From IMG/VR virus record IMGVR_UViG_3300047476_002078, positions 42,802-106,801 of that record: a stretch of DNA of 64,000 nt; one strand, written 5' to 3'. Positions 291-60,778 of the stretch are shown here, piece after piece (position 1 is the first letter of the stretch; every line of letters starts with the position of its first letter). The position numbers and the translations under genes are program-made. Under the pieces are notes generated by a model. The model did no database searches. It saw only the letters and a list, made by a program, of their open reading frames with translations, and had not been told where the DNA came from. The stretch comes from a virus.

Positions 291-607
291 AAAGATCAAA
301 GGTCTGGATTTCATATTGCCCTGATTTAAAAAATATTAACTCAGAGCCTCTGACTGTAAAATTTGAATTTGATTATGATTATGATTGTTATTTCGTAAGC
401 ATATATAAAGAAAGGCTTCTTTTAAAAGAAACTCCAGTTAATAAACAAAGTGATTATTTAGAATTTGAAGAATTAAAAAAAAGCATTAAGGTTGCAGATA
501 ACCTCATCCAAGAATTACATTACAAAGAAACACTACTTAAAAAATTATTTCGCAAACTGAAAAATAAGTTAAATGATTGGATATACAATCAATGTGGCAT
601 GAATTAA
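287..607 (+). CDS. hypothetical protein
   Basis: 106-aa ORF, no recognisable motif. Confidence 0.4.
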   Translation: MKRSKVWISYCPDLKNINSEPLTVKFEFDYDYDCYFVSIYKERLLLKETPVNKQSDYLEFEELKKSIKVADNLIQELHYKETLLKKLFRKLKNKLNDWIYNQCGMN

Positions 608-652
608 TTACGGTAATTTGACTTTAAAAACAGCATAAGATATTTTAACCAA

Positions 653-1297
653 ATGAAAATATCTACAGAATTAATTGTTTTTGATCTCGAATCAACATCA
701 AATCAAGAAACAAAATACGAAAAGCCTAAAGTTCAAACGAATAATTTCATTATTGAAATAGGTGCTGTTTTACTAAACAAAAATTTAGAAATTGTAGATG
801 AGTTTCAGCATTTTGTTAAACCTGAAGAAAATATAACTCCTTTCATAGAAGAATTAACTGGAATTTCAAACGATATAGTTCATAAAGAGCCTACGTGGGA
901 ACAAGTAGCTTCTAAATTTGAACAGTGGGCTTTAAGTCACACTAAAAATTTTAAAAGTGTTAGGTTGTGTGCTTGGGGAAACTATTTTGATATACCTCTT
1001 TTAAGAAAATGCTATTCTCATTACGGTATGTATTACCCTTGGTCAGGAACAGCACTAGATTGTAAAACAATTGCATTTTTATGGTGTGCTTTAAGTGGTA
1101 GAAGAACAGATAAGTTAAGTGTAGAACATTTAGCATCTTTAATGAATATTAGCCCTGAAGGGGATTACCATCGAGCTATAGTGGATGCTCAAGTACAGGC
1201 TAAAATTATCCAAAAGGCTTTAAAAGACCTGTCTTCTGGTTATTTTTTACCTAACACAGAAAACAAGCCCTATGATTTACTTAAAATTTGCAAGTGA
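653..1297 (+). CDS. DEDDh-type 3'-5' exonuclease (DnaQ-like)
   Basis: Exo I motif VFDLESTS, Exo III motif YHRAIVDAQ. Confidence 0.6.
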   Translation: MKISTELIVFDLESTSNQETKYEKPKVQTNNFIIEIGAVLLNKNLEIVDEFQHFVKPEENITPFIEELTGISNDIVHKEPTWEQVASKFEQWALSHTKNFKSVRLCAWGNYFDIPLLRKCYSHYGMYYPWSGTALDCKTIAFLWCALSGRRTDKLSVEHLASLMNISPEGDYHRAIVDAQVQAKIIQKALKDLSSGYFLPNTENKPYDLLKICK

Positions 1298-1298
1298 T

Positions 1299-1904
1299 TT
1301 ATATTTCACCGTGTAATTCGGTAACTTCCGTTGTGTATGTTTTAAGCCATTTTTTATAAGATTTTTTAATAATTTTAAGTTCCAATTTTGGAGCAATAAT
1401 TTCATCCCAACATTCTTCGTAAACATCATTTAAAAGATAGCACAATGAAAAAGGTCTTTTTGATGTGCTATAAAAATCGTGAGAAAATCCTAATTTGTGA
1501 CCATATTCATGGATAAAATTAGAGCCTGTCATTTTTCTGTGATGGCTTTCTTTTGATAAATTATTTGAATCAAAATATTTTGTGTTCACGTAAATTGTCA
1601 TGGTATTTGGATAGGTATAGCCGATGACATTTTTCCATGAAAAATAAGATTGAATTGTTATATCAATTACGTTGTCGATTGAAGGATTTAGAGTTTCTTT
1701 TCCAGATAGTATGTGGTTGTATATTTGTTCTCTTGATGCGTCTTTCCAAACAGAAAGTTCTCCGATTGGATTTTTAAGATTAATAATTTTTTCTTTAAAA
1801 AGAGAAGAGTTTATTATCATTTCCATCTCTTTCTGTACGGCATTAACTTTTTCCTGTCTTTCCTGTGTGAAATCTATTGTGGTTATATTAATTTTTGTAT
1901 TCAT
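1299..1904 (-). CDS. metzincin-like zinc metallopeptidase
   Basis: HEYGHKLGFSH matches HExxHxxGxxH; paralog of 53934..54596. Confidence 0.5.
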   Translation of the reverse strand: MNTKINITTIDFTQERQEKVNAVQKEMEMIINSSLFKEKIINLKNPIGELSVWKDASREQIYNHILSGKETLNPSIDNVIDITIQSYFSWKNVIGYTYPNTMTIYVNTKYFDSNNLSKESHHRKMTGSNFIHEYGHKLGFSHDFYSTSKRPFSLCYLLNDVYEECWDEIIAPKLELKIIKKSYKKWLKTYTTEVTELHGEI

Positions 1905-2001
1905 TTTAACTCCAAGTTTTACTCAGAATAAAAATAAATATGTTATTTTAACTACATGTGTTAAATTGACAGTTTCACCGTAAAATTGATATTCTAAAAA
2001 A

Positions 2002-2352
2002 ATGAACTTTGTTGCTGACTTTTATAATATCATTTCAAAATGCCAGTTTTCTTTAGAATCTGAAGAAGAGTTGAAACTGCAAATTTCAAGCGTCTTAGAA
2101 CGACATAATTTTGATTTTAAAAAAGAGTTTAGATTAGATTCAAAAAATAGGTTAGATTTTTACATTCATGATTATGCAGTAGAGGTAAAAATAAAAGGCT
2201 CTGCTATGAGCATCTACAGACAGTGTGTTCGATATTGTCAATTTAAGGAAGTAAAAGGTTTATTTCTCATTACAAATAAGTCTATGGGGTTTCCCACAGA
2301 GATTAATCAAAAACCTTGTTATTTAATAAATTTAGGTAAAAGTTGGCTTTAA
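2002..2352 (+). CDS. hypothetical protein, possible VRR-NUC-like nuclease
   Basis: VEVKIKG...SIYRQ resembles VRR-NUC E-x-K / Q motifs; immediately upstream of SNF2 helicase as is common in phages. Confidence 0.35.
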   Translation: MNFVADFYNIISKCQFSLESEEELKLQISSVLERHNFDFKKEFRLDSKNRLDFYIHDYAVEVKIKGSAMSIYRQCVRYCQFKEVKGLFLITNKSMGFPTEINQKPCYLINLGKSWL

Positions 2353-4013
2353 TGTTTAGATATTACGGTTCTATAAAATTTGATTCTAAAAATAATAGAT
2401 GGACAATAGAACAAATTGAACCGCATGTTTCAATTAAACTAAAATCTATTTTCACAAAAATTGCAAAATGGAAAACCGTTCCAATACATTTTGAAAATAC
2501 TCAAGAAAATTGCAGAGAATTAGAATGGTTTATTTCTCGATACCCTTTAGAAATGAGCGAAGAAGATCACAGTTATTTATTATCGCAAAAATTTAATCAT
2601 CTAAAAAAATTAGAAGATTTAGAAAAAATACTTAAACCTGATTATTCTCCAAGAGTTTTTCCACTGAAAGGTGAACTAAGACCTTATCAAGCTACCGCTG
2701 TTGAAATATTTCTACGCAACAAGCGGTTGTTAATAGGAGATGGAGTAGGATTGGGTAAAACTCTGTGCGGTATAGCTTCTGCTTTAGAGCCTTCTACGCT
2801 TCCAATGGCAGTAGTGGTTCAAACTCATTTACCGACGCAATGGAAAGAGCAGTTTGAAAAGTTTACTGATCTTAAAGTTCATCTAATTAAAGGAACAAAA
2901 CCGTATAATTTACCAACCGCAGATATTTATATTTGGAAATATTCATGTTTGTCTGGATGGGTTGATGTTTTTAAAATGGGATTTTTAAAATCTGTTGTAT
3001 TTGATGAGTGCCAAGAATTACGTATATCTGGTTCACAAAAATATGAAGGAGCGAAAGTTTTAACTTCAAATGTGGACTATGTTCTGGGTCTTTCTGCTAC
3101 CCCTATTTATAATTATGGTGATGAAATTTATAACATAATGAATCTAATCAAAGAAGGCTGTTTAGGAAACATTTATGATTTTATGAGAGAGTGGGCAGGA
3201 GGAGGGAATGGTAAACAAATTAAAAATCCAAAAGCTTTGGGAACTTATTTAAGAGAAAATTTTCTCTTTATTAGAAGAACAAGAGAAGACGTTCAAAGAG
3301 AATTACCTCCAGTAAACAAAATCGTACACACTGTAGATTTCGATAAAGAAGCTGTAGATAATATTGAGGAAATAGCGAAGAAATTGGCTATTTCTGTTAC
3401 GACAGGAACTTTTGTAGAAAGAGGAAAAGCCGCTCGTGAATTAGACATAATGGTTCGTCAGGCTACAGGAGTGAGTAAAGCAAAGTATGTGGCAGAATAT
3501 GTAAAGATTTTGTTAGAAAACGGGGAGTCTGTTCTTTTGGCAGGATGGCATAGAGCCGTTTACGATATATGGTTAAAAGAGTTATTTCAGTACAACCCAG
3601 TTATGTACACTGGTTCGGAAGATGTTAAAGAAAAAGATGCTGCTAAAAAGGCTTTTATTGAAGGTAAATCTCAATTAATGATTATATCACTTCGTTCCGG
3701 AATAGGATTAGATGGTCTTCAAGAGAGGTCTTCTCTGGTAGTTTTTGGGGAATTAGATTATTCTCCAGCCGTTCATGAGCAAGTGATAGGACGCTTAGAC
3801 AGGGATGGTCAAAAAAATCAAGTAACTAGCATTTATTTAATTAGCGATAGCGGCTCAGACCCTTTGATGGTTGACTTATTGGGCTTAAAAGCCTCTCAAG
3901 CCAAAGATATTATTGACCCTATGAATAACCAAGTGACTTTCCAAAATAGTGATGATACTCGTATTAAACTTCTAGCAGAGCTTTACCTTAAAAAAGCAGG
4001 AAATAATGGATAA
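2343..4013 (+). CDS. SNF2/SF2 family DNA helicase
   Basis: LRPYQ, Walker A GVGLGKT, DExx-like FDECQ, helicase C-terminal motifs. Confidence 0.7.
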   Translation: MALMFRYYGSIKFDSKNNRWTIEQIEPHVSIKLKSIFTKIAKWKTVPIHFENTQENCRELEWFISRYPLEMSEEDHSYLLSQKFNHLKKLEDLEKILKPDYSPRVFPLKGELRPYQATAVEIFLRNKRLLIGDGVGLGKTLCGIASALEPSTLPMAVVVQTHLPTQWKEQFEKFTDLKVHLIKGTKPYNLPTADIYIWKYSCLSGWVDVFKMGFLKSVVFDECQELRISGSQKYEGAKVLTSNVDYVLGLSATPIYNYGDEIYNIMNLIKEGCLGNIYDFMREWAGGGNGKQIKNPKALGTYLRENFLFIRRTREDVQRELPPVNKIVHTVDFDKEAVDNIEEIAKKLAISVTTGTFVERGKAARELDIMVRQATGVSKAKYVAEYVKILLENGESVLLAGWHRAVYDIWLKELFQYNPVMYTGSEDVKEKDAAKKAFIEGKSQLMIISLRSGIGLDGLQERSSLVVFGELDYSPAVHEQVIGRLDRDGQKNQVTSIYLISDSGSDPLMVDLLGLKASQAKDIIDPMNNQVTFQNSDDTRIKLLAELYLKKAGNNG

Positions 4014-4260
4014 AGAAAAATATGATTTTTTAGTCTCGAAAACTATGGGTGAAATAGAAAAAGCCGTAAAAAATGCTTTGGTTGGTGAAAACTTAACTCC
4101 TTCCGAACAGTTTACTGTTACAACTGGAGTTTCCTTTTTTCTTACGGCTGAACACATTTCCGCTCTCTTGATGAGTCAACCTGAACAAAAAGATTTTTTA
4201 GTTCAGAGTTCAATAAATAAAATTATGGAATTAGTTCAAGGATATTTATCCGAAGTTTAA
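4006..4260 (+). CDS. hypothetical protein
   Basis: 84-aa ORF overlapping helicase stop. Confidence 0.4.
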   Translation: MDKEKYDFLVSKTMGEIEKAVKNALVGENLTPSEQFTVTTGVSFFLTAEHISALLMSQPEQKDFLVQSSINKIMELVQGYLSEV

Positions 4261-4284
4261 TATTTTAATGGAATGGAGTTTTAA

Positions 4285-4575
4285 ATGAAATTTTTAGTTG
4301 TTATTTTGTCATTTTTTTACGCAAACATTTCTGAGGCTTGTCTTCACAGTGATAAGACTGAGTTTAAACGGAAGCTAGAACAGACAAAGGTTGAGATTAA
4401 AATTTTTTGTCACAACTATTTTAATTCAGATATGATTGAGACTTGCGTTAATGAAAATAATGAATGTTTAAAAGAAAACATTAAAAAAGTTAGAAAAGTA
4501 ACTTTTTGCAAAAATGATTCTAATATAATCATTAAAGCTTGGGATATGTGTCAATATAGAAAACCTTGGCTATAA
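4285..4575 (+). CDS. secreted Cys-rich small protein
   Basis: N-terminal signal peptide, multiple Cys. Confidence 0.35.
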   Translation: MKFLVVILSFFYANISEACLHSDKTEFKRKLEQTKVEIKIFCHNYFNSDMIETCVNENNECLKENIKKVRKVTFCKNDSNIIIKAWDMCQYRKPWL

Positions 4576-5535
4576 ATCCACGCATTGAGAAGCATCCTTA
4601 TCTTCTCTTATTCTTATAAATCTGGGGCTTCTAAAAGCCCCTTTTTTTGTTCTTTCTTGTGCTTTTATCTCAATAACTTTTCCAATGTAACTTTCTTTAT
4701 TTTGTGAGAAATCTCTTCTCATACTTTCACTCATTCCCGAACAAGTTCCAAGCTCAATAATTTGACCGTTTTTATACAGTCCAAATTTTATAGCTCCTAT
4801 TAATTTTTCTTTCCAATAAGATGTTTCAGATACTTCTCCGTTTGATTTTTTTGAAAATTGTTGAGGCTTTTCAAAACCTGTTATGATTACATCCCAAGTC
4901 TTCACTTTTTTTACTTTAAACCAACCTGAGCCGTAACTAGCGTTTAAACTTTTCAACATAATTCCTTCGCCTCCTCTATTTGTTACAGCTTCATATAATT
5001 TTTTTGCCTCTGAAGCAGGAACAGATTGAACCATAACGACAGGCACTTTATTACTGAATAGAATGTTTACAACTTTTTTTAAAAACTCTTTCCTTTTTTT
5101 AAGAGGTATTTGACGTAAATCATTATTTCCAAATTTAGGTATGTCATAAACATGGTACTCAAGCCAACCTTCTTCATTTTGTTTTTGTACTGCTCTTTCA
5201 GGAGTACACCCCATTATTGAAGTAGTTGCATCGGATTTTTCTGTATTAGGGTGAACTAACTCTCCATCAATAATTGTTCCGTAAAGTTCTTTTGGTACTA
5301 ACACTCTTGTTAAGTGGGGACAATGTAGAGTTTTATCTACGTATTCTCCAGTAACGTCTGATATTCTTCGGGATAACAATTTAGATTTCCCAAGTTCGTC
5401 AATATAAAGCAAATAACGGCTTCCGTCTTTTTTCACTTCAGCTACGAAGTTTTCATTGATGAAATTAGAATCTGCCCAAAGATTGTCATAGTCTTCGTGG
5501 GGAATGTGTTCAGCTTTAGCAGGATTTACTTTCAT
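4570..5535 (-). CDS. ATP-dependent DNA ligase
   Basis: Motif I EVKKDGSR (KxDG), EGIMLK motif, OB-fold C-terminal region. Confidence 0.75.
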   Translation of the reverse strand: MKVNPAKAEHIPHEDYDNLWADSNFINENFVAEVKKDGSRYLLYIDELGKSKLLSRRISDVTGEYVDKTLHCPHLTRVLVPKELYGTIIDGELVHPNTEKSDATTSIMGCTPERAVQKQNEEGWLEYHVYDIPKFGNNDLRQIPLKKRKEFLKKVVNILFSNKVPVVMVQSVPASEAKKLYEAVTNRGGEGIMLKSLNASYGSGWFKVKKVKTWDVIITGFEKPQQFSKKSNGEVSETSYWKEKLIGAIKFGLYKNGQIIELGTCSGMSESMRRDFSQNKESYIGKVIEIKAQERTKKGAFRSPRFIRIREDKDASQCVDL

Positions 5536-5559
5536 GTTTATTCTCCTATAATACTTAAA

Positions 5560-5576
5560 GGCTATACCGATTCCAC
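5560..5576 (-). promoter_or_regulatory. conserved 17-bp element GTGGAATCGGTATAGCC (copy 1 of 5)
   Basis: Exact reverse complement on + strand, ~25 bp upstream of ligase start on - strand. Confidence 0.45.
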
Positions 5577-5611
5577 CGTTTAATATAAGTAATTGAATTT
5601 AATGAGGATTT

Positions 5612-5950
5612 ATGAGTTTTGAAGGGTATTATCAAATAAAGTGCGAAAATAATCACTATTACACGGAAAATGTTTATACGTTTTCTTTTTCTTCATCAAG
5701 GTGCTCTTACTGTGATGGAAAAATTATAGCTACAAAAATGGTAGATGAAACAAATGGGGAGTCAGAAGGGTATGATCCAAAATTTTCAGAAAATTGTGAT
5801 GTTTTAGTCTCAGTTTGGAAATCTGAATTAGAGTTTTTAACAGAAGAAAAAGAAAAATTTGAAAAAATTGCTAAATGTAAATATATGCACAAGATGAAAA
5901 TAGATGGGGAAGGCTATTGTTCTAAATGTGGCTGGAAACAAAATTTGTAA
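5612..5950 (+). CDS. Cys-rich zinc-binding hypothetical protein
   Basis: CxxC pairs at both ends. Confidence 0.4.
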   Translation: MSFEGYYQIKCENNHYYTENVYTFSFSSSRCSYCDGKIIATKMVDETNGESEGYDPKFSENCDVLVSVWKSELEFLTEEKEKFEKIAKCKYMHKMKIDGEGYCSKCGWKQNL

Positions 5951-5986
5951 AGAGGAGCCTGCTTTCAGGCTCCTCTCTTGTTTAGA

Positions 5987-6181
5987 TTACTCTCCGATAG
6001 AAAGCTTATCTTTTGAAACAATTCGCAGAATCATGTTTACTACCGCAAATACGCCTACTACAACGTCAGGTTGAGCAGCAATGTATTCGCTCACGCCCGG
6101 AGCGAAAAGTGCTCCTAATGCCACAATAGCGTTTACCCAAAGCGTTTTAGAAAGCCATGGCTTCTTTACACCGTTTTCCAT
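5987..6181 (-). CDS. small membrane protein, possible holin
   Basis: 64 aa, two hydrophobic segments, charged C-terminus. Confidence 0.3.
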   Translation of the reverse strand: MENGVKKPWLSKTLWVNAIVALGALFAPGVSEYIAAQPDVVVGVFAVVNMILRIVSKDKLSIGE

Positions 6182-6259
6182 TTTAAATTCTCCTTTTTAA
6201 GTTGAGTTCCTAAATAATTATAGAAACAATACATATAATGGTGACGAGGATATTTTATT

Positions 6260-6916
6260 ATGTCTATAAACATAAATCATTTTTTTAATTACGGTTACTC
6301 AGTGAGTCAAATTCCTGTCGAATTAGCGGATGCTTTGTTAGAAACAGTGAGAAAGCAAAATTATTCTGTTTGTGATGGAACTTACAAATCAAATTTGGAG
6401 GCTCCTTTACTAGCTTCTTGGAATAGTGAGCTTTTACCTAAAACTTCTAACATTGGTGAAACTCCTCCAATTTTAGAGTCTCTTCAAGCGATTTTAAAAG
6501 AAATGGGTTTTTTAAATTGGTTTGAGATTAACTTTGGGGTCTTTAGTCAATTTTCGGTAATGGTCAACAAATTTTCAAAAAATAATGGGATGATTTGGCA
6601 TAATGACCATTTAGATTCAACTTTTTTAAGTGTTTTAATTTATCTTTCTAAAGATATTTTTGAAGAAAATGATGGCGGATATTTGGAGTTAGGTAGGATA
6701 TACAACACTGATTATGTAATGGATGCTAGACCTCCTTCAGAAGAAGTTAGCTTATTAAGAAGTGTCTTGCCAAATCACGGAACAATAGTGCTTTTAAACA
6801 ATACTCAGATAACATCTGTTCACAGAGTTGAAAAAATGATTTCAGACAAAGAGCGTTATACAATTCTGTGTCATTTTGGTTATTGGCAAAATATTGTTCA
6901 CAAAAAACGGAAATAA
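6260..6916 (+). CDS. 2OG-Fe(II) oxygenase family protein
   Basis: WHNDHLD (HxD) and distal VHRV His. Confidence 0.5.
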   Translation: MSININHFFNYGYSVSQIPVELADALLETVRKQNYSVCDGTYKSNLEAPLLASWNSELLPKTSNIGETPPILESLQAILKEMGFLNWFEINFGVFSQFSVMVNKFSKNNGMIWHNDHLDSTFLSVLIYLSKDIFEENDGGYLELGRIYNTDYVMDARPPSEEVSLLRSVLPNHGTIVLLNNTQITSVHRVEKMISDKERYTILCHFGYWQNIVHKKRK

Positions 6917-6969
6917 TTTTGACTTACCGTAAAATACCTTTTAGCGTTTTAAAATACATGGAGGTTTCA

Positions 6970-7200
6970 ATGAAATTTTTATCTTTATTCAGTGTTCTTT
7001 TTTCCTTTTCTTTGTTTGCCCAAGAATTAAAATGTGACGTTAGATTAAACTACGTCGGTGTTTATTATAATTATTGTCCTGTTGGAACAGTTTCGGAAGC
7101 TGTAGATGTAAGATTGAGCGGTTCCCCTCAATATCCTTTTGTAAATGTGTTGCTAAGATGTGTAAAACCTGAAGTTGTGTGTAAAAAGGTTAATGAATAA
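6970..7200 (+). CDS. secreted small protein
   Basis: Signal peptide MKFLSLFSVLFSFSLFAQ after RBS GGAGG; upstream in-frame extension likely spurious. Confidence 0.4.
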   Translation: MKFLSLFSVLFSFSLFAQELKCDVRLNYVGVYYNYCPVGTVSEAVDVRLSGSPQYPFVNVLLRCVKPEVVCKKVNE

Positions 7201-8073
7201 ATGAAAAAGTTAGTAGTTGTAGATGTATCAAATATGTTTTTTAGGGCTTTCTATGGTGTACCAACACTTTCAAATAAGAAAGGGATGCACACCAACGCCA
7301 TTTTTGGGTTTTTGAAAATGGCACTCAACTTGACAAAAATGAGTCCTGATTATTTTGCATTTTGTATGGAAGGTGGAAGCTCTTTTAGAAAAGATATTTT
7401 TTCAGAATACAAAGGCAATAGAAGTGAATTGCCTGAAGAGTTAAAACAACAACTTCCATATATTCCAAAAGTGATTGAGTCTCTAGGATTTAAACAGATT
7501 CAACAAAAAACTTTTGAGGCTGACGATATAATTGGCACTTTATCTAAAAAAGCTTCAGAAAGCGGAATTAAAACCATAATCATATCAGGTGATAAAGATT
7601 TTTCTCAGCTTATAGACGAAAATGTAGAGCTTGTTGATACTATGAGAAACATTACCTACGCTTCAAAAGACGTGTTTTTAAAATACGGGGTAGAGCCTAA
7701 AAATTTCATAGATTATTTGGCTATAGTCGGAGACAGTTCAGATAATATTCCGGGCGTTTCTGGCATAGGGGCGAAAGGGGCAAGCTCGCTTCTAAACTTG
7801 TATAATTCCCTTGAAGGGATTTATGAGAATATTGAAAAGATTAAAGGCAAAAATAAAGAAAAATTAATCGCCTCTAAAGACAACGCCTTTTTGAGTAAAA
7901 GACTAGCAACAATAGTAACAGATGTACCTATTGAAATTAATTGGGAAGACTTTAAAAGAAATCCAATCAACAAAGAACTCATAAAAGAATTAATAGAAGA
8001 GTTAGAATTTACTCAACTTGACTACTTATATAAACCGCAGCCTGAATCTTTAAGCGAGTTAGAATACATGTAA
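7201..8073 (+). CDS. 5'-3' exonuclease / flap endonuclease (FEN, Pol I N-terminal-like)
   Basis: VVVDVSNMFFRAFYG, helix-3-turn-helix-like GIGAKGA motif. Confidence 0.75.
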   Translation: MKKLVVVDVSNMFFRAFYGVPTLSNKKGMHTNAIFGFLKMALNLTKMSPDYFAFCMEGGSSFRKDIFSEYKGNRSELPEELKQQLPYIPKVIESLGFKQIQQKTFEADDIIGTLSKKASESGIKTIIISGDKDFSQLIDENVELVDTMRNITYASKDVFLKYGVEPKNFIDYLAIVGDSSDNIPGVSGIGAKGASSLLNLYNSLEGIYENIEKIKGKNKEKLIASKDNAFLSKRLATIVTDVPIEINWEDFKRNPINKELIKELIEELEFTQLDYLYKPQPESLSELEYM

Positions 8074-8096
8074 AATGAAGGGAGTTAAATCTCCCT

Positions 8097-8447
8097 TCAT
8101 TGCGTGATTGGAATAATTTTCTTACTTTTTTCAGTTTTTGGAATTTCTATCTTTAATACTCCGTCTTTGTATGATGCTTTAATATCATCTGTATTAAGAT
8201 CATTCGCTAGTTTAAAAGATCGTTTAAATTTCCCATAATTAATTTCATTCAAAATAGTTCTGTCTGCTTCTGTTTTTTCTTTTTCATATTCAACAGTCAA
8301 AATATTATTGTTTGTTTCTATGTTGAATTTTTCAGATGAAACTCCGGGCACTTCGGCAAGAATGGATACTTTATCTTTGTAGTCAGTGATGCAAACATCA
8401 AAAGGTTTCACCATTTCATGACGGAAAAAAGAATCTGAATAAAACAT
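8097..8447 (-). CDS. Hsp20/alpha-crystallin small heat-shock protein
   Basis: Alpha-crystallin domain, AEVPGV ... GVLKIEIPK. Confidence 0.7.
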   Translation of the reverse strand: MFYSDSFFRHEMVKPFDVCITDYKDKVSILAEVPGVSSEKFNIETNNNILTVEYEKEKTEADRTILNEINYGKFKRSFKLANDLNTDDIKASYKDGVLKIEIPKTEKSKKIIPITQ

Positions 8448-8535
8448 TTTAACCTCCTAAAATTGTTCTTATTTATAAAATGTTTCCGTAATTTAATTTG
8501 TCAAGTGCCTAAAATAAAAATAAGGAATAACTTAT

Positions 8536-8811
8536 ATGAACAAAGAAGAAATTATATCTCTTGCAATGGAACGATTGGGTTGGACTGAAAGAAAAGTTCG
8601 GTCTTGGTATAAAAAAGAAAATAATTGGCTTAAAGGTAACTCTCCTAAAGAGTTAGTTGAAAGAGGTGAATCAGAAATAGTTGTAGAATTTTTAATGTCA
8701 CGGCAAAAAGATTTAGACGAAGATGATAAAGGCGAAGATGTTGAGCCAAAAGAAGAATATGAAGTAGTGTTCAAAAAAGATAAGAAGAAAAAATTATGGT
8801 TTAAACCATAA
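8536..8811 (+). CDS. hypothetical protein
   Basis: 91-aa acidic ORF. Confidence 0.4.
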   Translation: MNKEEIISLAMERLGWTERKVRSWYKKENNWLKGNSPKELVERGESEIVVEFLMSRQKDLDEDDKGEDVEPKEEYEVVFKKDKKKKLWFKP

Positions 8812-8833
8812 CATCATGCACAATTAAAATTTA

Positions 8834-8870
8834 TTGTTATAGTATTTTCCGTAAAATATAATTTACGGAA
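8834..8870 (+). promoter_or_regulatory. sigma70-like promoter TTGTTA-N17-TATAAT with CCGTAAAA palindrome in spacer
   Basis: TTGTTA 8834-8839, TATAAT 8857-8862, inverted TTCCGTAAA/TTTACGGAA flanking -10. Confidence 0.45.
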
Positions 8871-8881
8871 AAAGAGGTTAT

Positions 8882-9223
8882 ATGAAAAAAGGAACAGTTA
8901 CAAAAATTTCATTCTTAGATAATCCGCAAGTCCCTGTTGAAAAGGCTTTCGTATTAGAAGGAGAGAAATTTACGGGGTATTTTTCTGAGGAACCTAGAGT
9001 TGGTCAATGCTTTTTACTCACTCAATGTCAGGACGATGTGGCATTTTTTAAAAGCTCTACAGTCAAATCTGTTTTTAAACCAGATACAGAGCAAGATAAA
9101 TTAATTATTCCTTCTCAATTTCAAAATAAAGAAAAACTGAATATTCCAGTTGTTAAAGAAAATGAAACACTTTTTATAACAATGAACTCTTTATACCTTT
9201 TAAGTGATGTGACGGATGCGTAA
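8882..9223 (+). CDS. hypothetical protein
   Basis: 113-aa ORF with RBS. Confidence 0.4.
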   Translation: MKKGTVTKISFLDNPQVPVEKAFVLEGEKFTGYFSEEPRVGQCFLLTQCQDDVAFFKSSTVKSVFKPDTEQDKLIIPSQFQNKEKLNIPVVKENETLFITMNSLYLLSDVTDA

Positions 9224-9361
9224 CAAGATTAAAAAACTTCATTTGGTGTCGGTTATTGTATGTTTTTTTGTGCTGGGTAACGCAATTAACAAAAAAGATT
9301 TTAAGTTAATTGCGTTCACTTCATTTTTTACATTTGTTGGTTTGTACAGATACGTAAGGAT

Positions 9362-9643
9362 TTAAAAATCATCTTTTAAAGGATTTTTGTCAGTTCCCAT
9401 TAACCATCCTCTATCTACGCCATATAAATTTACCACGTCAGTAATAAATTGTGCAGAAGCCGATTTAGAACCCTCTTCGATAGCGATATATTCATCTAGT
9501 GGCATAGCGAGTAGAGCACAAACTTGTTCCCGTGTGAATCGGTTGGAAATTCTTTTTGCTCTTATTTTTGCGGCGAAATCTTTCATTTTCATAAATTCTC
9601 CTTTATTTAATTTTATTTTAGAGAAGCATTGATCGAATTGCAA
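9362..9643 (-). CDS. XRE-family HTH transcriptional regulator
   Basis: HTH FTREQVCALLAMPLDEYIAIEEG; real start probably internal MKMKDF. Confidence 0.5.
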   Translation of the reverse strand: MQFDQCFSKIKLNKGEFMKMKDFAAKIRAKRISNRFTREQVCALLAMPLDEYIAIEEGSKSASAQFITDVVNLYGVDRGWLMGTDKNPLKDDF

Positions 9644-9648
9644 ATAAT

Positions 9649-10460: not shown

Positions 10461-10556
10461 CTTGACCTACCTTAAAAATGATACATATAGTAAAATTAAT
10501 TACTTCTGTAACAAGTCTAATAAAAAACTTAATAGATAGAATAACTTACGTATTTA

Positions 10557-11358: not shown

Positions 11359-11425
11359 AAAAACCCTCTCAAGTGAATTTACCTATTAAATATAAAATAA
11401 AAGTTAGTTATCTTCTTATATTTTT

Positions 11426-12025: not shown

Positions 12026-12076
12026 TATTTATACCCTCTATAAGGTAGAAATAATGAAACTTTATGACGCATAGCA

Positions 12077-12695: not shown

Positions 12696-12704
12696 AAAGT
12701 CTCC

Positions 12705-14067: not shown

Positions 14068-14255
14068 TATAGAGGTAAATTATAAACTTTACTTTACGGT
14101 AAAAACTCGATAGCCTTTTTAAATGAAACAAAATTTATGTGTTGTGTTATATTTAATTTTTATTTTTTTAGCGTCAGGATTTATTGCTTTTTATAGTCCA
14201 ATAGAATGTGATGAAGTTTGTATGAAAGAATACATGGAAGAATAGGGAGGTTCCT

Positions 14256-24498: not shown

Positions 24499-24544
24499 AA
24501 TTTAGAATTAGACATTTTAAATTTTACGGTAAATAATTCTCAGC

Positions 24545-26022: not shown

Positions 26023-26254
26023 TTTTCCCTCTTATACTGTATTTTCCAAAAACCAAAACGCAGTTCAAACGTATAAACTGAAACCAGTTTATCTGGGAAC
26101 CCTGCATAATCTTTGACGATCATATTTTTACAACTAGAGATACCTAATTCAAAAGCTCGATTTTCTAAAAATTTCCATTCGCCCATATTATTAATATAGA
26201 CTTTTACGGTTACAAAAAGTAAAATTTTGTTCTTTATTTTACGGAGAATTTAAA

Positions 26255-27906: not shown

Positions 27907-27907
27907 T

Positions 27908-31298: not shown

Positions 31299-31303
31299 AT
31301 TTA

Positions 31304-31333
31304 CACCGTAAAAGTTTTACACCGTAAAATTTA
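31304..31333 (+). promoter_or_regulatory. two direct copies of ACACCGTAAAA motif
   Basis: TACACCGTAAAAGTTTTACACCGTAAAAT upstream of SPFH gene. Confidence 0.4.
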
Positions 31334-34809: not shown

Positions 34810-34845
34810 TAAAACCTCGTTGTTTAATGATATTTTTTACCGTAA

Positions 34846-34872
34846 AATATAAGCAGCTAATTACGGTAAAAC
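34846..34872. promoter_or_regulatory. inverted pair TTACCGTAAAAT / TTACGGTAAAAC in divergent intergenic region
   Basis: Between divergent MTase (-) and 34924 (+). Confidence 0.4.
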
Positions 34873-37970: not shown

Positions 37971-38014
37971 TTGACAACCTCTACCGTAAATTACTAGAAT
38001 TTACGGTAGAGGTT
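37971..38014 (+). promoter_or_regulatory. sigma70-like promoter TTGACA-N18-TAGAAT overlapping perfect 17-bp palindrome
   Basis: AACCTCTACCGTAAATT-actag-AATTTACGGTAGAGGTT; 5 bp before MTase ATG 38019. Confidence 0.5.
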
Positions 38015-41566: not shown

Positions 41567-41993
41567 GCCACTTGCCACACGCCCCATGCCACTTGCCCCC
41601 ATTACCATCCCATACCCATGAAGATGCCCTTGCCAAGTGCAACGGAAGCCAAACGTACAGGTAAGCGTACAGGTCAAAATCAAGGGCAGGGAAACGGTTC
41701 AACTGGAAACTGTGAACCGTGCGGAAGTCCAAAAAGTCGGTTTTACCCTAAAGCCCTTAAACACGGTTAAACAGGCTTTACTCATCTTAAACAGATCATG
41801 GCAAACATAAGCACCGAACACCGCACGAGATAACGTGGCACGACAACCGAAAAACGGCTTTTACCCTAAAAGCAACAGGAGGTAAGTGCGGTTTTACGGT
41901 GAAATGCCAAAGATATAATGACAAAGGCTTTACGGTTAAAAATTGCCGTGATAGCGTTTTCGATGAGTGTTAAACCTATGGAGGGGATGAAGA

Positions 41994-49102: not shown

Positions 49103-49163
49103 CTCACCGCAAAAATTGATATTGACTAAGTGTGTTCAATAGCATATTATCCGTAAAATTTTT

Positions 49164-50253: not shown

Positions 50254-50270
50254 GTGGAATCGGTATAGCC
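50254..50270 (+). promoter_or_regulatory. conserved 17-bp element GTGGAATCGGTATAGCC (copy 3)
   Basis: 24 bp upstream of ATG 50294, RBS AGGAGG between. Confidence 0.45.
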
Positions 50271-51400: not shown

Positions 51401-51402
51401 CC
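51386..51402 (+). promoter_or_regulatory. conserved 17-bp element variant GTGGAAATGGTATAGCC (copy 4)
   Basis: 15/17 match, upstream of 51443/51455 start. Confidence 0.35.
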
Positions 51403-54596: not shown

Positions 54597-54892
54597 GGTT
54601 TTACTTTTACGGAGTTTTTATGACTAAGAATCAAAAGAAGATAATGTTAGGAGTTGATGGAGTTAAATTTAATTTGAAAAATTTAGCAGACAGGCTAGAG
54701 ATTGTTTCGAGAAGTTTAAAAAATATGCCTTTAGAAACAAAACATGAAGATAAGCTACCTGTTGGTCAAGCATCACCCTGTTATGCACTTAAAGAGTTAG
54801 GCGGAGAATTAAGCGTCATTAATTACAACATCAATTATCTGTCGGATATGCTAGAAGATTTTTACAAAGAATATAATAAAGAGGTTATGTAA
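54590..54892 (+). CDS. hypothetical protein
   Basis: 100 aa. Confidence 0.35.
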   Translation: MVRFYFYGVFMTKNQKKIMLGVDGVKFNLKNLADRLEIVSRSLKNMPLETKHEDKLPVGQASPCYALKELGGELSVINYNINYLSDMLEDFYKEYNKEVM

Positions 54893-55767: not shown

Positions 55768-55784
55768 GTGGAATCGGTATAGCC
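55768..55784 (+). promoter_or_regulatory. conserved 17-bp element GTGGAATCGGTATAGCC (copy 5)
   Basis: 20 bp upstream of probable ATG 55804, RBS GGAGGA between. Confidence 0.45.
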
Positions 55785-57276: not shown

Positions 57277-57476
57277 GTTATAAAAATTCGTTCCGAGTTG
57301 TTGGAAGTGCAAGGGCAGTATTTTTGGAAGATTTTTGAAAGTTTTTGGAAGTGTTTAGAGCACTCGGAACGTATTTAAAAACTTTACCGTAAATTGAAAT
57401 TAATTCAACATTGTTTTTCACGGTGCAAGAATTTTTAAGATTCACGCACAGCACAATTTACTAATTTAATCTTGTT

Positions 57477-57731
57477 TTGATGAGATTATTTTTTCTTGCT
57501 CTGTTTATATCTTTTAACAGTTTCGCTCTGGAAACAGTTATTTGCAACGGTGCGGAAGAATCATATAAGTGCTACACTTATTCTAAAGACGAACCTCAAT
57601 ACTACGAAAATGTCATAAATGTTCATGAATCCGATGGATGGAAAGAAGAAAAAAGTGACTCAGATAGTCAGGATTCCGAATACTCCTATAAAGAAAAATC
57701 AAGTTTACCGTATATTTTTCTTCGTAATTAA
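57477..57731 (+). CDS. secreted small protein
   Basis: Signal peptide MMRLFFLALFISFNSFA. Confidence 0.4.
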   Translation: MMRLFFLALFISFNSFALETVICNGAEESYKCYTYSKDEPQYYENVINVHESDGWKEEKSDSDSQDSEYSYKEKSSLPYIFLRN

Positions 57732-58685: not shown

Positions 58686-59129
58686 ATGAAGATGGAAAAA
58701 TTGTTTCACCAGCATTTACTACTAAGAGCCTATGTTAAAAACCCTCCAAAACAAGAAGAGGTTTTGAATCAATGGATGCTAGAATTGATTCAAGACATTA
58801 AAATGGAAATCGCTGTTCCCCCTAGATCATGCTATGTAGATAAAGCAGGAAACGAAGGTTTGACAGGTTCTATAGCTTTCACTGGGGTTGCAAATATCCA
58901 AACGAGCCACTTTGCCATTCATATCTGGGATGGTTTAGAACTACCGAAAATTGAGATGGATTTGTATAGTTGTTCATGCTTTTCTGAAATGACTATTCTA
59001 AAAAAGTTGTCAGAGTGGGATTTAGTCAAATATTATTTTATAATGGTAGATAGAAATCAAATTCCATTTACCATAGTAAACCAAACGCAAGATGAAGTTT
59101 TATGGGATTCTCAAAAATTGCTAGACTAG
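58686..59129 (+). CDS. S-adenosylmethionine decarboxylase-like (SpeH class 1, pyruvoyl-dependent)
   Basis: TSHFAIHIWDG...MDLYSCS aligns with SpeH [23 protein letters not shown]. Confidence 0.5.
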   Translation: MKMEKLFHQHLLLRAYVKNPPKQEEVLNQWMLELIQDIKMEIAVPPRSCYVDKAGNEGLTGSIAFTGVANIQTSHFAIHIWDGLELPKIEMDLYSCSCFSEMTILKKLSEWDLVKYYFIMVDRNQIPFTIVNQTQDEVLWDSQKLLD

Positions 59130-59905
59130 CTAGAGACAAAGAGTTTATTGGTAAAACATTTAATTCAATTAAACTAATTAAAAGAGCTAAGGGTGATTCC
59201 AGAGCTACTTGGAAAGCGGAGTGCCTAGAGTGCGGTAAAAAATTTTATGTTTTAGAAAAGGTAGTTTTAAGCGGAAATAAAAAAAGCTGCGGATGTAAAA
59301 AGTTAAAATACTTATCTTTAGGCACAAAAATATCAGCTTATAAAAAGATAAAATCTCGTGGTGATAGGCTTATAGGGAAAAGGTTCGGCAAGTTAGAAAT
59401 ATTAAAAATTTATGAAATACAAGATAACTTTAAAAATAGAATTTACTGCGATGTAAAATGTGATTGCGGTAAAATAAAAAAAGTTAGATATGACTCCGTA
59501 AAAAACTCTAAATCTTGCGGTTGTTCAGTAATTCAGAAAAATAAGGAAAGGTCTAAAAAATTTTCTGCCGAAAACCACCTGTTTAAGCATACAAAAGCAA
59601 CTGCTAAAAAGAGAAATTTATCATTTACTTTAGATTTTATGACTTTTATATCTATTATAGAGAAAAATTGTTACTATTGCGGTCAGGAACCGACTTTATT
59701 TTATCTCAATGATAGTTCAAGATGTTTTCGTAACGGTATAGATAGAATGGATAATTCTAAAGGCTACGAAGAATCAAACTGTGTCCCTTGTTGCTACGTA
59801 TGTAATAGGGGAAAAAGTAATATGCTTATGAAGGATTGGTTGGATTATATCAATCGAATAGTAAATTTCTATAAATCAAGCGAATACAAAATAGACTTTC
59901 CGTAA
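59102..59905 (+). CDS. HNH homing-endonuclease-like protein with CGC zinc-finger repeats
   Basis: GIDRMDNSKGY...NCVPCCYVCNRGK HNH core; two SCGC repeats. Confidence 0.45.
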   Translation: MGFSKIARLARDKEFIGKTFNSIKLIKRAKGDSRATWKAECLECGKKFYVLEKVVLSGNKKSCGCKKLKYLSLGTKISAYKKIKSRGDRLIGKRFGKLEILKIYEIQDNFKNRIYCDVKCDCGKIKKVRYDSVKNSKSCGCSVIQKNKERSKKFSAENHLFKHTKATAKKRNLSFTLDFMTFISIIEKNCYYCGQEPTLFYLNDSSRCFRNGIDRMDNSKGYEESNCVPCCYVCNRGKSNMLMKDWLDYINRIVNFYKSSEYKIDFP

Positions 59906-59950
59906 ATTCATGCGGTACGATTTCCATATAGGGAGAAATACCGCATGAAT
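59906..59950 (+). promoter_or_regulatory. 12-bp inverted repeat enclosing RBS and start codon of 59945 gene
   Basis: ATTCATGCGGTA ... TACCGCATGAAT; loop contains TATAGGGAGA. Confidence 0.4.
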
Positions 59951-60211
59951 GATAAAGAAGATTTGATCGCTCTATTAAATGAAATTTTGTGTGAAGCTTA
60001 TCAAGATCACGAAGCTGAAGCTAAATTGTCTCTATCTATAATTAGAGAAAAACTTCAGCCTTTTTCGACTAAAGAATTTCCGTATTCTGTTCAAAGAAAA
60101 CTTCAAAAAGAGATTGATAAATTGACTAATATTTACAATTTTTATCAGTCTTTTCCGAACATTCCAGAACACATTCAAAATGAAGCTAGAGAGATGTTTT
60201 TAAAAAAATGA
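59945..60211 (+). CDS. hypothetical protein
   Basis: 88 aa. Confidence 0.4.
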   Translation: MNDKEDLIALLNEILCEAYQDHEAEAKLSLSIIREKLQPFSTKEFPYSVQRKLQKEIDKLTNIYNFYQSFPNIPEHIQNEAREMFLKK

Positions 60212-60591
60212 AGTTTTTAATTCATTCAATCCTAGAGAAATTTTTTCAAAAACTTTCAGTTTGGAATCATTTTCTTTTTTACGAAGAAAATAAACATTTA
60301 CCTACGACCAAATACAGACCTAGCAAAAAAGTTTCTCAGATATGTTCTTATTGCGGTAATCACTTTAAGGTAGGTTCAAATTTTGGTAAAACAGAAGTCA
60401 GAAAATTAACACCACTGTATTTCAAAGTGCGGAATGATAAAATCAGTATTTATCCTCAAGCTCACGAAGTTAAAGGATACATAAAATCTCAAACTTCTGA
60501 TTCAGATTTAACATGCCCTTTCTGTTTTAAAAAATTTTCTACGGCAGTATCATTTAAAACTCTCGATGTTATAGTTGTTCTTTTTTATTAG
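60208..60591 (+). CDS. hypothetical Cys-containing protein
   Basis: 127 aa, CxxC pairs. Confidence 0.4.
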   Translation: MKFLIHSILEKFFQKLSVWNHFLFYEENKHLPTTKYRPSKKVSQICSYCGNHFKVGSNFGKTEVRKLTPLYFKVRNDKISIYPQAHEVKGYIKSQTSDSDLTCPFCFKKFSTAVSFKTLDVIVVLFY

Positions 60592-60778
60592 CTATATGCT
60601 TGTCTAAACAATAGTCCCCAATTACGCACATAGCTAAGAACATTATAAATTCAGATACGGCTGACATTTCTATTTTTAATACCTGACCTGCTAAGATAAA
60701 AAACATACTGCCTATAAATCTCATAAAAAAGCCTTTTTACCGTAAAATATATTTGCTATTCTTTCACGGGAGGAATTT

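What the first reader, a model, noticed from the sequence alone, without database searches (positions are those of the whole stretch)
606..60750. Recurrent palindromic CCGTAAAA / TTTAC-N-GTAAA element in at least 16 intergenic regions
Occurrences include 606-619, 1972-1986, 6925-6936, 8847-8870 (an inverted pair flanking a TATAAT), 14089-14103, 24522-24536, 26202-26248, 30788-30800, 31304-31333 (two direct copies), 34846-34872 (an inverted pair), 37981-38012 (inside a perfect 17-bp palindrome), 49149-49162, 54603-54613, 57383-57394, 59896-59905 and 60737-60750. Almost all lie 10-40 bp upstream of start codons. In at least three cases (1965, 8834, 37971) the element sits in the spacer of a recognisable TTGNNA-N17/18-TAnnnT promoter. 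The core is a palindrome (TTTAC-c/g-GTAAA), consistent with a dimeric DNA-binding regulator such as the XRE-family protein at 9362..9643. Alternatively it could be a phage-specific extended -10 (CCG-TAAAAT).
Basis: seen in the sequence. Interest (0 to 1): 0.65.

Follow-up and report, generated by a model that had tools for sequence, protein, structure and literature searches.

The report
Repeated operator-like motif at phage promoters
An uncultivated giant phage carries about twenty copies of a short near-palindromic DNA word (TTTAC-C/G-GTAAA) on its host-type promoters; this is most likely the binding site of one unidentified regulator protein, which is an ordinary kind of control with a new sequence.

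Summary
CCGTAAA occurs 41 times in the window against 5.2 expected. About half of the copies lie in the 11% of the window that is intergenic, and it is the most enriched intergenic 7/8-mer. The perfect 11-mer TTTACSGTAAA occurs 5 times (0.07 expected), always between genes.

In a syntenic relative at about 77% nucleotide identity (L011), 5 of 6 intergenic copies are intact while their flanks diverge. None of 4 coding copies is intact. More distant relatives lack the motif.

At seven strongly predicted sigma-70-type promoters, two of them fixed by a conserved leaderless geometry, the site centre lies between -41 and -2. It sits upstream of the -35, in the spacer, or over the start site. Two promoters carry inverted pairs that bracket the -10.

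This variable position, the dyad symmetry and the co-occurrence with consensus TTGACA fit operators of a dimeric regulator, probably a repressor (confidence about 0.6). They do not fit a core promoter element.

Its own promoter carries a different palindrome and no CCGTAAA, so the binder remains unknown.

This is a new member of a known kind, of modest interest.

The parts
607..617 (.). Degenerate site ATTACGGTAAT, directly upstream of the -35 TTGACT of a leaderless promoter for gene 653-1297. Site centre about -41.
   Evidence: L011 has a better copy (TTTACGGTAAAG) at the same place. The TTGACT-N17-TAnnnT-N6-ATG geometry is conserved in L011.
1974..1984 (+). Site TTCACCGTAAA in the spacer of TTGACA-N18-TATTCT-N6-ATG, a leaderless promoter for gene 2002-2352 plus the SNF2 helicase. 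Site centre about -23.
   Evidence: The -35 and the motif are conserved in L011, while the bases between and after them diverge.
6923..6933 (+). Site CTTACCGTAAA immediately after the -35 TTGACT of the promoter for gene 6970-7200. Site centre about -26.
   Evidence: L011 keeps this site and has a second direct copy 17 bp downstream, over the -10.
8482..8492 (-). Degenerate site (CCGTAAT) in the spacer after TTGACA on the minus strand, upstream of the HSP20-like gene 8097-8447(-).
   Evidence: The whole block is conserved in L011.
8845..8872 (.). Inverted pair TTTTCCGTAAAATA|TAATTTACGGAAAA bracketing the -10 TATAAT of TTGTTA-N17-TATAAT, upstream of gene 8882-9223. Site centres about -19 and -2.
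   Evidence: Both copies and the -10 are conserved in L011, while the spacer upstream diverges.
14093..14103 (.). Perfect palindromic site TTTACGGTAAA, 50 nt upstream of gene 13819-14043(-).
24523..24533 (.). Perfect site TTTACGGTAAA overlapping the predicted -10 (AATAAT) 7 nt before the ATG of the DenV-like glycosylase gene 24545-25081, which has no Shine-Dalgarno sequence.
26203..26248 (-). Two direct copies (TTTACGG at 26203 and at 26238, 35 bp apart) in the divergent region between 26019-26186(-) and 26255-26530(+). The first lies 4 nt upstream of the -10 TATATT of a leaderless minus-strand start.
31302..31328 (+). Two direct copies of TACACCGTAAA, 16 bp apart, upstream of the flotillin (SPFH) gene 31370-32668.
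   Evidence: In L014 the flotillin gene carries an internal deletion and the second copy is mutated (CCGCAAA).
34836..34870 (.). Inverted pair TTTTACCGTAA ... TTACGGTAAAA (perfect 11-nt arms, 15 nt apart) between the C5-methylase gene 33946-34809(-) and gene 34924-35142(+).
37976..38014 (.). Perfect 17-bp inverted arms AACCTCTACCGTAAATT / AATTTACGGTAGAGGTT containing two sites that bracket the -10 TAGAAT of TTGACA-N18-TAGAAT, upstream of the two C5-methylase genes 38019-40033. Site centres about -22 and -2.
49147..49157 (+). Site TTATCCGTAAA abutting the -10 of TTGACT-N17-TATTAT and covering the predicted start site, upstream of gene 49176-49424. Site centre about -5.
54606..54616 (-). Site TTTACGGAGTT 14 nt upstream of gene 54620-54892, about 30 nt downstream of a TTGACT hexamer.
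   Evidence: The promoter assignment here is weak.
57383..57393 (.). Perfect site TTTACCGTAAA in the 203-nt intergenic region upstream of gene 57480-57731.
   Evidence: No confident promoter was found nearby.
59896..59906 (+). Site CTTTCCGTAAA overlapping the stop codon of 59102-59905, 45 nt upstream of gene 59945-60211.
   Evidence: Borderline member; no relative was available to test conservation.
60736..60746 (.). Perfect site TTTACCGTAAA followed directly by TATATT, 39 nt upstream of gene 60779-61042. No recognisable -35.
41893..41939 (-). Two exact CCGTAAA copies (TTTACGGTGAA, TTTACGGTTAA) in an atypical, G+C-richer, repeat-bearing non-coding stretch. Membership is uncertain.

Best explanation
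The motif is a set of operators. Each is a binding site for one sequence-specific, probably dimeric DNA-binding regulator. The consensus is (a)tTTtAC-C/G-GTAAAat with an invariant core CCGTAAA.

The sites are placed inside the RNA-polymerase footprint of about 15 host-type (sigma-70-like, TTGACA/TATAAT) promoters of a roughly 356-kb uncultivated phage. Occupying these sites would block or dislodge host RNA polymerase. A dispersed set of presumably early genes would therefore be switched off together: small ORFs, methylases, flotillin, a DenV-like glycosylase and a helicase operon. Promoters with two sites (8882, 38019, 34.8 kb, 31.3 kb, 26.2 kb) would be held more tightly.

Shown here: the enrichment, the intergenic location, the symmetry, conservation against diverging flanks, the variable position relative to predicted -35/-10 hexamers, and lineage specificity.

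Inferred: that a protein binds, that it is a dimer, that the effect is repression, and that the protein is phage-encoded. Its gene was not identified.
For: - Enrichment: 41 copies against 5.2 expected. It is the top intergenic k-mer. There are 5 perfect 11-bp palindromes against 0.07 expected, all intergenic.
- The upstream flank is T-rich and mirrors the right half, and 21 of 22 intergenic CGTAAA are preceded by C.
- Phylogenetic footprint against L011 (77-78% nt identity): 5 of 6 intergenic 7-mers are intact against a 32% background for intergenic 7-mers (binomial P = 0.014). None of 4 coding copies is intact (Fisher P = 0.024). The spacer bases next to the motif differ.
- L014 conserves 6 of 7 promoter-proximal sites.
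- At promoters scoring 9 or more, and at 8447(-) (score 7.6), site centres lie at -41, -23, -26, -19/-2, -22/-2, -5 and -17. The promoters at 653 and 2002 are anchored by a -10 + 6 nt + ATG leaderless geometry that is conserved in L011.
- Inverted pairs bracket the -10 at 8845-8872 and 37976-38014. Pair spacings of 16, 17, 20, 24 and 35 bp show that each 11-13-bp site is an independent unit.
- Six of the 14 intergenic TTGAC[AT] hexamers are adjacent to a site.
- The motif is absent from more distant relatives: L005-L010, L012 and L013.
Against: - No binding protein was identified. Pfam and PHROG scans of about 60 window proteins, plus the precomputed Pfam hits for the rest, give only one weak HTH. 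That protein's own promoter lacks the motif.
- All promoters and start sites are predictions. The generic sigma-70 scan finds no more hits than shuffles do.
- About half of the sites (57383, 59896, 60736, 31.3 kb, 14093) have no convincing -35. There the site could equally act positively, or its own TAAAAT could be the -10.
- There is a mild orientation bias: CCGTAAA is on the coding strand of the downstream gene in 10 of 12 clear cases (P = 0.02), or 11 of 15 with degenerate sites (P = 0.06). A purely symmetric operator does not predict this.
- Coding regions also carry more copies than codon shuffling predicts: 19 against 5.6, mostly antisense. This is unexplained.
Confidence: 0.6

Rival explanations
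1. The site is bound by a positive factor, an activator or sigma-appropriating protein comparable to P1 Lpa or T4 MotA. The element, centred about -20, would replace or supplement the -35 and define a phage-specific temporal class of promoters.
For: - Ten sites can be read as lying 4-14 bp upstream of a TAnnnT hexamer. -10-like hexamers are enriched 8-15 nt after the motif start: 6 of 17 against a 10% null, P = 0.005.
- About half of the sites lack a usable -35.
- There is a mild orientation bias towards the downstream gene.
Against: - The distance from site to -10 spans a full helical turn (4-14 bp). Other sites sit at -41, -5 and -2.
- The best-defined promoters already have consensus TTGACA or TTGACT at 17-18 bp, so they need no activator.
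- In the inverted pairs, one copy sits over the start site, where bound protein normally blocks transcription.
Confidence: 0.13
2. CCGTAAAAT is itself a core promoter element: a phage-specific -10 or extended -10 read by a phage sigma factor or phage RNA polymerase.
For: - TAAAAT matches TATAAT at 5 of 6 positions, and TACCGT fits TAnnnT.
- Orientation mostly agrees with the downstream gene.
- Sites such as 60736 and 34836 have no other obvious -10/-35 pair.
Against: - Inverted pairs and perfect palindromes would imply convergent or divergent promoters firing into the upstream gene.
- At 653 and 2002 the conserved leaderless geometry places the functional -10 elsewhere, 12-40 bp from the motif.
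- At 49147 and 8862 the motif lies downstream of a good -10.
- No sigma factor or RNA-polymerase gene is recognisable in the window.
Confidence: 0.08
3. The sites are operators, but for a host global regulator (for example one with a CodY-like T-rich/A-rich odd palindrome). The phage would have recruited it to couple early expression to host physiology.
For: - No phage-encoded binder was found.
- The 15-mer ATTTTAC-S-GTAAAAT shares 11 of 15 positions with the Firmicute CodY box AATTTTCWGAAAATT. That box is recalled from my own knowledge and was not tested.
- The window has low G+C (33%) and Gram-positive-like SD and -35/-10 signals.
Against: - The positions that differ from the CodY box (A/T next to the core, and the S centre) are the invariant ones here.
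- The host is unknown, so no host genome could be scanned.
- Relatives at 63-83% protein identity lack the motif entirely. That fits a fast-evolving phage regulator at least as well as a host switch.
Confidence: 0.13
4. The motif acts at the RNA level as CCGUAAAAU in 5' leaders, for example as a site for a translational repressor or a nuclease.
For: - Most copies are on the sense strand 14-93 nt before start codons.
Against: - At the best-defined promoters the motif lies upstream of, or across, the predicted start site, so it is not transcribed.
- Palindromic and inverted copies occur.
- There is no Rfam match other than tRNAs.
Confidence: 0.03

Closest known systems
KorA / KorB global operators of IncP-1 plasmids (O_A GTTTAGCTAAAC; O_B TTTAGC(C/G)GCTAAA; PMC2680271)
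   Same: - A short 12-13-bp palindrome, T-rich on the left and A-rich on the right. O_B, like this motif, has an odd length with a central C/G.
- It is repeated at many promoters of one mobile genome.
- Some copies overlap the -10 and others lie just upstream of the -35.
- It serves coordinated repression.
   Different: - The sequence differs: TTTAC-S-GTAAA against TTTAGC-S-GCTAAA.
- No ParB/KorB-like or KorA-like protein was detected in the window.
- Most sites here lie in the -35/-10 spacer.
- No evidence was obtained for action at a distance or for partition functions.
Phage P1 C1 repressor operators (22 dispersed sites, asymmetric 17-bp consensus ATTGCTCTAATAAATTT; PMC8546580)
   Same: - One phage regulator with roughly 20 operators scattered over a large genome, controlling many unrelated operons.
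- Sites occur singly or in pairs.
- The core shows some asymmetry.
   Different: - The sequence is unrelated and shorter.
- The site here is clearly dyad-symmetric at its best copies.
- This phage shows no sign in the window of a temperate or plasmid lifestyle.
P1 Lpa-dependent late promoters and T4 MotA-dependent middle promoters
   Same: - A phage-specific sequence between the -35 position and a host-type -10 marks a class of promoters. The Lpa and MotA geometry (about -22 and about -30) is recalled from my own knowledge. Lpa as a factor acting at specific late promoter sequences is described in PMC8198154.
   Different: - Those elements sit at a fixed position and replace the -35.
- Here the position ranges from -41 to -2, copies are inverted, and consensus -35 hexamers are retained.
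Lambdoid CI/Cro-type and XRE-family operators
   Same: - Pseudo-palindromic sites overlap the -35/-10.
- Multiple sites occur per promoter.
   Different: - Lambdoid operators are confined to one immunity region and are longer (14-18 bp), with half-sites about 10 bp apart.
- Here there are 15 or more dispersed promoters, and half-sites are only 6 bp centre to centre.
- The in-window XRE gene has a different palindrome at its own promoter.

Membership tests
Dispersed operator set of a mobile-element global repressor (KorA/KorB-like, P1 C1-like) | One short sequence recurs at many promoters across the element, far above chance. | tested here: met
   41 copies against 5.2 expected, with half of them in the 11% of the window that is intergenic. 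Top intergenic k-mer.
Dispersed operator set of a mobile-element global repressor (KorA/KorB-like, P1 C1-like) | Sites overlap the RNA-polymerase footprint (-35, spacer, -10 or start site) at variable positions. | tested here: met
   Site centres lie at -41, -26, -23, -22, -19, -17, -5 and -2 at seven predicted promoters. Two of these are anchored by a conserved leaderless geometry. The promoters are predictions, not mapped.
Dispersed operator set of a mobile-element global repressor (KorA/KorB-like, P1 C1-like) | Sites are conserved in relatives more than the surrounding non-coding DNA. | tested here: met
   In L011, 5 of 6 sites are intact against a 32% background (P = 0.014), and the flanks diverge.
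Dispersed operator set of a mobile-element global repressor (KorA/KorB-like, P1 C1-like) | A cognate DNA-binding protein is encoded by the element. | tested here: inconclusive
   Only a sub-threshold HTH_31 match was found, at 9362-9592(-). No ParB, KorA, RHH or other DNA-binding domain appeared in about 60 proteins scanned, nor in the precomputed Pfam lists. About 290 kb of the genome was not seen.
Dispersed operator set of a mobile-element global repressor (KorA/KorB-like, P1 C1-like) | Protein binding and repression are demonstrated. | not testable with these tools
   This needs EMSA or footprinting and reporter assays.
KorB O_B / KorA O_A operators specifically | The sequence is TTTAGC(C/G)GCTAAA or GTTTAGCTAAAC. 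| tested here: not met
   The consensus here is TTTAC(C/G)GTAAA. The operator sequences are taken from PMC2680271.
Phage-specific core promoter element (-10 / extended -10 for a phage sigma factor or RNA polymerase) | Fixed distance to the start site and a single orientation relative to the gene. | tested here: not met
   The position varies over about 40 bp. There are perfect palindromes and inverted pairs, and four sites are in the opposite orientation.
Activator-dependent promoters (P1 Lpa-type, T4 MotA-type) | The element sits at a fixed position and substitutes for a missing -35. | tested here: not met
   The distance from site to -10 is 4-14 bp. Six promoters keep TTGAC[AT] at 17-18 bp.
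Operator of the in-window XRE-like protein (9362-9592, minus strand) | The regulator's own promoter carries the operator (autoregulation, usual for XRE/Cro/CI-type proteins). | tested here: not met
   Intergenic region 9593-9669 has no CCGTAAA. It has a different perfect palindrome, GCAAATAATTTGC, over the predicted -35, conserved in L011 and unique in the window.
CodY box (AATTTTCWGAAAATT) | A match to the 15-bp consensus at the invariant positions. | tested here: not met
   11 of 15 positions match. The invariant A/T flanking the core and the C/G centre differ. The CodY consensus is recalled from my own knowledge.
Known structured RNA (Rfam) | A covariance-model match at gathering score. | tested here: not met
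   Only 5 tRNAs were found.

The most novel reading that the evidence does not exclude
The element may not be a simple repressor site. It could mark a phage-defined promoter class in a giant uncultivated phage. In that reading, a phage factor bound at about -20 re-programmes host RNA polymerase. It would activate promoters that lack a -35 and silence those that carry a second copy over the start site, giving a dual switch like phi29 p4 or P1 Lpa. Alternatively, the element could load a KorB/ParB-type clamp for long-range silencing. The excess of unconserved antisense copies inside genes would then be part of the same system.
Probability: 0.15. Interest if true: 0.55.

Novelty: new member of a known kind. 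Interest (0 to 1): 0.35.

Why it matters
Giant uncultivated phages are known almost only as gene lists, and their transcriptional programmes are unknown. A conserved, lineage-specific operator at about 15 promoters does three things.

- It defines a co-regulated, probably early, gene set without culturing the phage.
- It gives clean probes for fishing out the regulator: the 28-bp pair at 8845-8872 and the 39-bp palindrome at 37976-38014.
- Together with the conserved leaderless promoters, it gives a first sketch of promoter architecture in this lineage.

The regulatory principle itself is textbook, so the value is descriptive and practical rather than conceptual.

Tried and rejected
- Megablast of 12 kb against GenBank phages gave no match.
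- IMG/VR scans with three window proteins found no close relative.
- The single metagenome scan, with the PARP protein, returned only 3-kb contigs that do not reach any site.
- Flotillin homologues at 63-83% identity (L006-L010) and helicase homologues at 67-70% (L012, L013) are not syntenic and lack the motif. They served only as negative controls.
- A literature search for the motif strings returned only primers and vector sequences.
- Pfam and PHROG scans for a regulator found nothing except the weak XRE match.
- The generic sigma-70 scan is uninformative in this AT-rich DNA: 77 hits against 80 in shuffles.
- Walking 10 kb upstream (L019) and 9 kb downstream (L024) added three perfect sites but no regulator.
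- Rejected as explanations: compositional chance (shuffles and Markov models); peptide-coding bias for the intergenic copies; repeat or mobile-element ends (flanks are unrelated); a methylase target (no reason for intergenic clustering); an RNA element (sites lie upstream of the predicted starts).
- A fixed helical phasing between paired sites was looked for and not found. Spacings are 16, 17, 20, 24 and 35 bp.

Full report
**What the window is.**
The window has 33% G+C and about 135 mostly small, mostly plus-strand genes, plus 5 tRNAs. Recognisable genes include an SNF2 helicase, a ligase, exonucleases, three C5-methylases, a PARP-domain protein and a flotillin. It has no nucleotide match in GenBank phages. 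Identical pieces occur in several JGI and Logan metagenomes. One window protein belongs to a cluster whose longest contig is 355,874 bp. The helicase resembles those of 300-485-kb phages. I treat the window as part of an uncultivated jumbo phage.

Yes.
- CCGTAAA occurs 41 times on both strands. Dinucleotide shuffles give 5.24 +/- 2.2, with a maximum of 11.
- With a simple gene model, 21-22 of the 41 copies fall in 7.2-7.5 kb of intergenic DNA, which is 11-12% of the window.
- A k-mer scan of intergenic DNA against an order-3 Markov model trained on that same DNA ranks CCGTAAA (21 observed, 3.7 expected) and CCGTAAAA (14 observed, 1.6 expected) first.
- Aligning the intergenic copies gives tTTtA-CCGTAAA-AT. 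The T-rich left flank mirrors the right half, so the full site is an imperfect odd palindrome, TTTAC-S-GTAAA.
- Five copies are perfect 11-mers (0.07 expected), and all five are intergenic.
- 21 of 22 intergenic CGTAAA are preceded by C.
The three promoter assignments and the 17-bp palindrome arms are correct.
- Minor corrections are listed in the observation check.

**Conservation.**
Two syntenic relatives were recovered.
- L011 (ENA, 13.4 kb) aligns to window 77-14530 at 77-78% nucleotide identity.
  - The copies at 1978, 6927, 8849, 8862 and 14093 are intact. The degenerate copy at 606 is a better match in L011 (TTTACGGTAAAG), and the copy at 8486 is retained.
  - Bases between the -35 and the motif, and after the motif, differ. 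L011 also has an extra direct copy 17 bp after the 6927 site.
  - Only the copy at 12118 is lost.
  - Only 32% of intergenic 7-mers are fully conserved in this alignment, so 5 of 6 intact gives P = 0.014.
  - The four coding-region copies in the same interval are all changed (Fisher P = 0.024).
- L014 (JGI, 87-90% identity to window 22878-35602) keeps the sites at 24523, 26203, 26238, 31306 and the 34.8-kb pair. It has lost the degenerate 30788 copy. It has mutated the second copy in front of a flotillin gene that carries an internal deletion in L014.
- More distant phages lack the motif. These share the flotillin (63-83% aa) or the helicase (67-70% aa). They show no CCGTAAA excess and no perfect 11-mer.

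The motif is therefore functional, intergenic-specific and lineage-specific.

**Where the sites sit.**
This phage uses recognisable sigma-70-type signals and strong Shine-Dalgarno sequences.
- Several genes have no Shine-Dalgarno sequence but have a TAnnnT hexamer exactly 6-7 nt before the ATG. This implies leaderless mRNAs.
- For genes 653 and 2002 the geometry TTGAC(T/A)-N17/18-TAnnnT-N6-ATG is preserved in L011 although the spacer sequence changes. That fixes these promoters with some confidence.
- Across the seven best promoters the site centre lies at:
  - -41 (gene 653)
  - -23 (gene 2002)
  - -26 (gene 6970)
  - -17 (gene 8447, minus strand)
  - -19 and -2 (gene 8882)
  - -22 and -2 (gene 38019)
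  - -5 (gene 49176).
- The 8882 and 38019 promoters each have an inverted pair bracketing the -10 hexamer.
- Six of the 14 intergenic TTGAC[AT] hexamers lie next to a site.
- Paired sites are 16, 17, 20, 24 or 35 bp apart. They are not phased, so each 11-13-bp site behaves as a unit.
- For the remaining sites (14093, 24523, 26203, 31.3 kb, 34.8 kb, 57383, 59896, 60736) the -35 is weak or absent and the promoter assignment is uncertain. A TAnnnT hexamer often follows within 1-8 nt: 6 of 17 against a 10% null, P = 0.005.

**Interpretation.**
Four features are the signature of operators for a dimeric DNA-binding regulator: a dyad-symmetric site; its placement anywhere from just upstream of the -35 to the start site; frequent doubling; and its presence on promoters that already have consensus -35 and good -10 elements. 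The position inside the polymerase footprint points to repression.

These features argue against a core promoter element. Such an element needs a fixed distance and one orientation. They also argue against a MotA- or Lpa-type activator site, which needs a fixed position and a missing -35.

I put about 0.6 on the operator/repressor reading. That a protein binds, that it represses, and that it is phage-encoded are all inferences.

Two observations do not fit neatly.
- CCGTAAA is on the coding strand of the downstream gene in 10 of 12 clear cases. With degenerate sites included the count is 11 of 15 (P = 0.06).
- Coding regions hold 19 copies against 5.6 under codon shuffling, mostly antisense (14 against 3.5), in two reading frames. 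TTTACGG ranks 16th of 12,033 coding 7-mers. These coding copies are not conserved in L011.

**Who binds?**
Unknown.
- Pfam and PHROG scans of about 60 window proteins, and the precomputed Pfam lists for the rest, show a single candidate: a 76-aa XRE-like protein (HTH_31, E = 1.8e-4, below threshold) at 9362-9592(-) (10, 35, 45, 56, 67).
- Its own upstream region contains no CCGTAAA. It contains a different perfect 13-bp palindrome, GCAAAT-A-ATTTGC, lying over the predicted TTGCAA-N17-TAAAAT promoter of the XRE gene. That palindrome is conserved in L011 and unique in the window. It is the more likely XRE operator.
- The regulator may lie in the roughly 290 kb not seen, or may be a host protein.
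- Extending 10 kb upstream and 9 kb downstream added three perfect sites, two of them at gene starts, but no regulator.

**Comparison with known systems.**
- The closest analogues in logic are the global operators of IncP-1 plasmids. KorA O_A (GTTTAGCTAAAC) overlaps -10 regions. KorB O_B (TTTAGC(C/G)GCTAAA) lies upstream of the -35 and is also an odd palindrome with a C/G centre (PMC2680271).
- A second analogue is the 22 dispersed C1 operators of phage P1 (PMC8546580).
- The sequence here differs from both, and no KorA-, KorB- or C1-like protein was found. The element therefore works like these systems but is not a member of either family.
- A literature search for the motif strings found nothing relevant. 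Rfam finds only tRNAs.

**Verdict.**
This is a real, conserved, lineage-specific regulatory motif. It is most probably the operator of an unidentified repressor controlling about 15 host-type promoters of a giant uncultivated phage. It is a new instance of a familiar kind of control. Its interest is modest: it is useful as a handle on the transcription programme of an uncultured jumbo phage.

Noticed in passing
window 5560-5576 (-), 34889-34905 (+), 50254-50270 (+), 55768-55784 (+), and 51386-51402 (+, 2 mismatches): A second repeated element, GTGGAWTCGGTATAGCC, occurs 5 times against 0.06 expected. It is often preceded by ATTATA. Every copy is on the sense strand, 0-25 nt before a start codon. 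It is partly conserved in L011 and L014. It could be a promoter with a conserved leader, or a 5'-UTR element.
   Followed up: partly
window 653, 2002, 19026, 19582, 24545, 26186(-), 29923, 30786(-), 40301: These genes have no Shine-Dalgarno sequence but have a TAnnnT hexamer exactly 6-7 nt before the ATG. This implies leaderless mRNAs. The geometry is conserved in L011 for 653 and 2002.
   Followed up: partly
window 9640-9652: A perfect 13-bp palindrome, GCAAAT-A-ATTTGC, lies between the XRE-like gene (9362-9592, minus strand) and the MgtC-like gene (9670-10107). It overlaps the predicted XRE promoter, is conserved in L011 and is unique in the window. It is probably the XRE protein's own operator.
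   Followed up: partly
window coding regions, e.g. 10750, 20646, 21705, 46715, 53801, 54510: TTTACGG on the coding strand (that is, CCGTAAA antisense) occurs 14 times against 3.5 under codon shuffling, in two reading frames. Many copies carry the full ATTTTACGG. The four copies in the L011-aligned interval are not conserved. This is unexplained.
   Followed up: partly
window 40098-40243 and 41491-41597; non-coding stretch 41441-41993: There is a 54-bp tandem repeat (2.7 copies) and a 19-bp tandem repeat CTACCACACAGATTCACAC (3.9 copies). Both lie in unusually long non-coding regions, the second of which (41.44-42.0 kb) is G+C-richer. TTTACCCTAAA occurs twice there. This could be an origin or iteron region, or an RNA gene.
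   Followed up: no
L014 8411-8695 versus window 31370-32668: In relative L014 the flotillin gene has lost about 1.1 kb internally (window 31407-32527). The promoter-proximal motif copy upstream is mutated (CCGTAAA to CCGCAAA).
   Followed up: partly
window 37976-38014: At the methylase promoter the dyad symmetry extends 6-7 bp beyond the shared motif (AACCTCTA...TAGAGGTT). This may reflect an additional specificity or a recent duplication. It is reminiscent of controller-protein operators of restriction-modification systems, but no nuclease gene is adjacent.
   Followed up: no
window 44102-46249 and L019 6318-8309 (about 2-4 kb upstream of the window start): There are two large PARP-domain (ADP-ribosyltransferase-like) proteins in this phage, plus several 2OG-Fe(II) oxygenase paralogues and three C5-methylases.
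   Followed up: no
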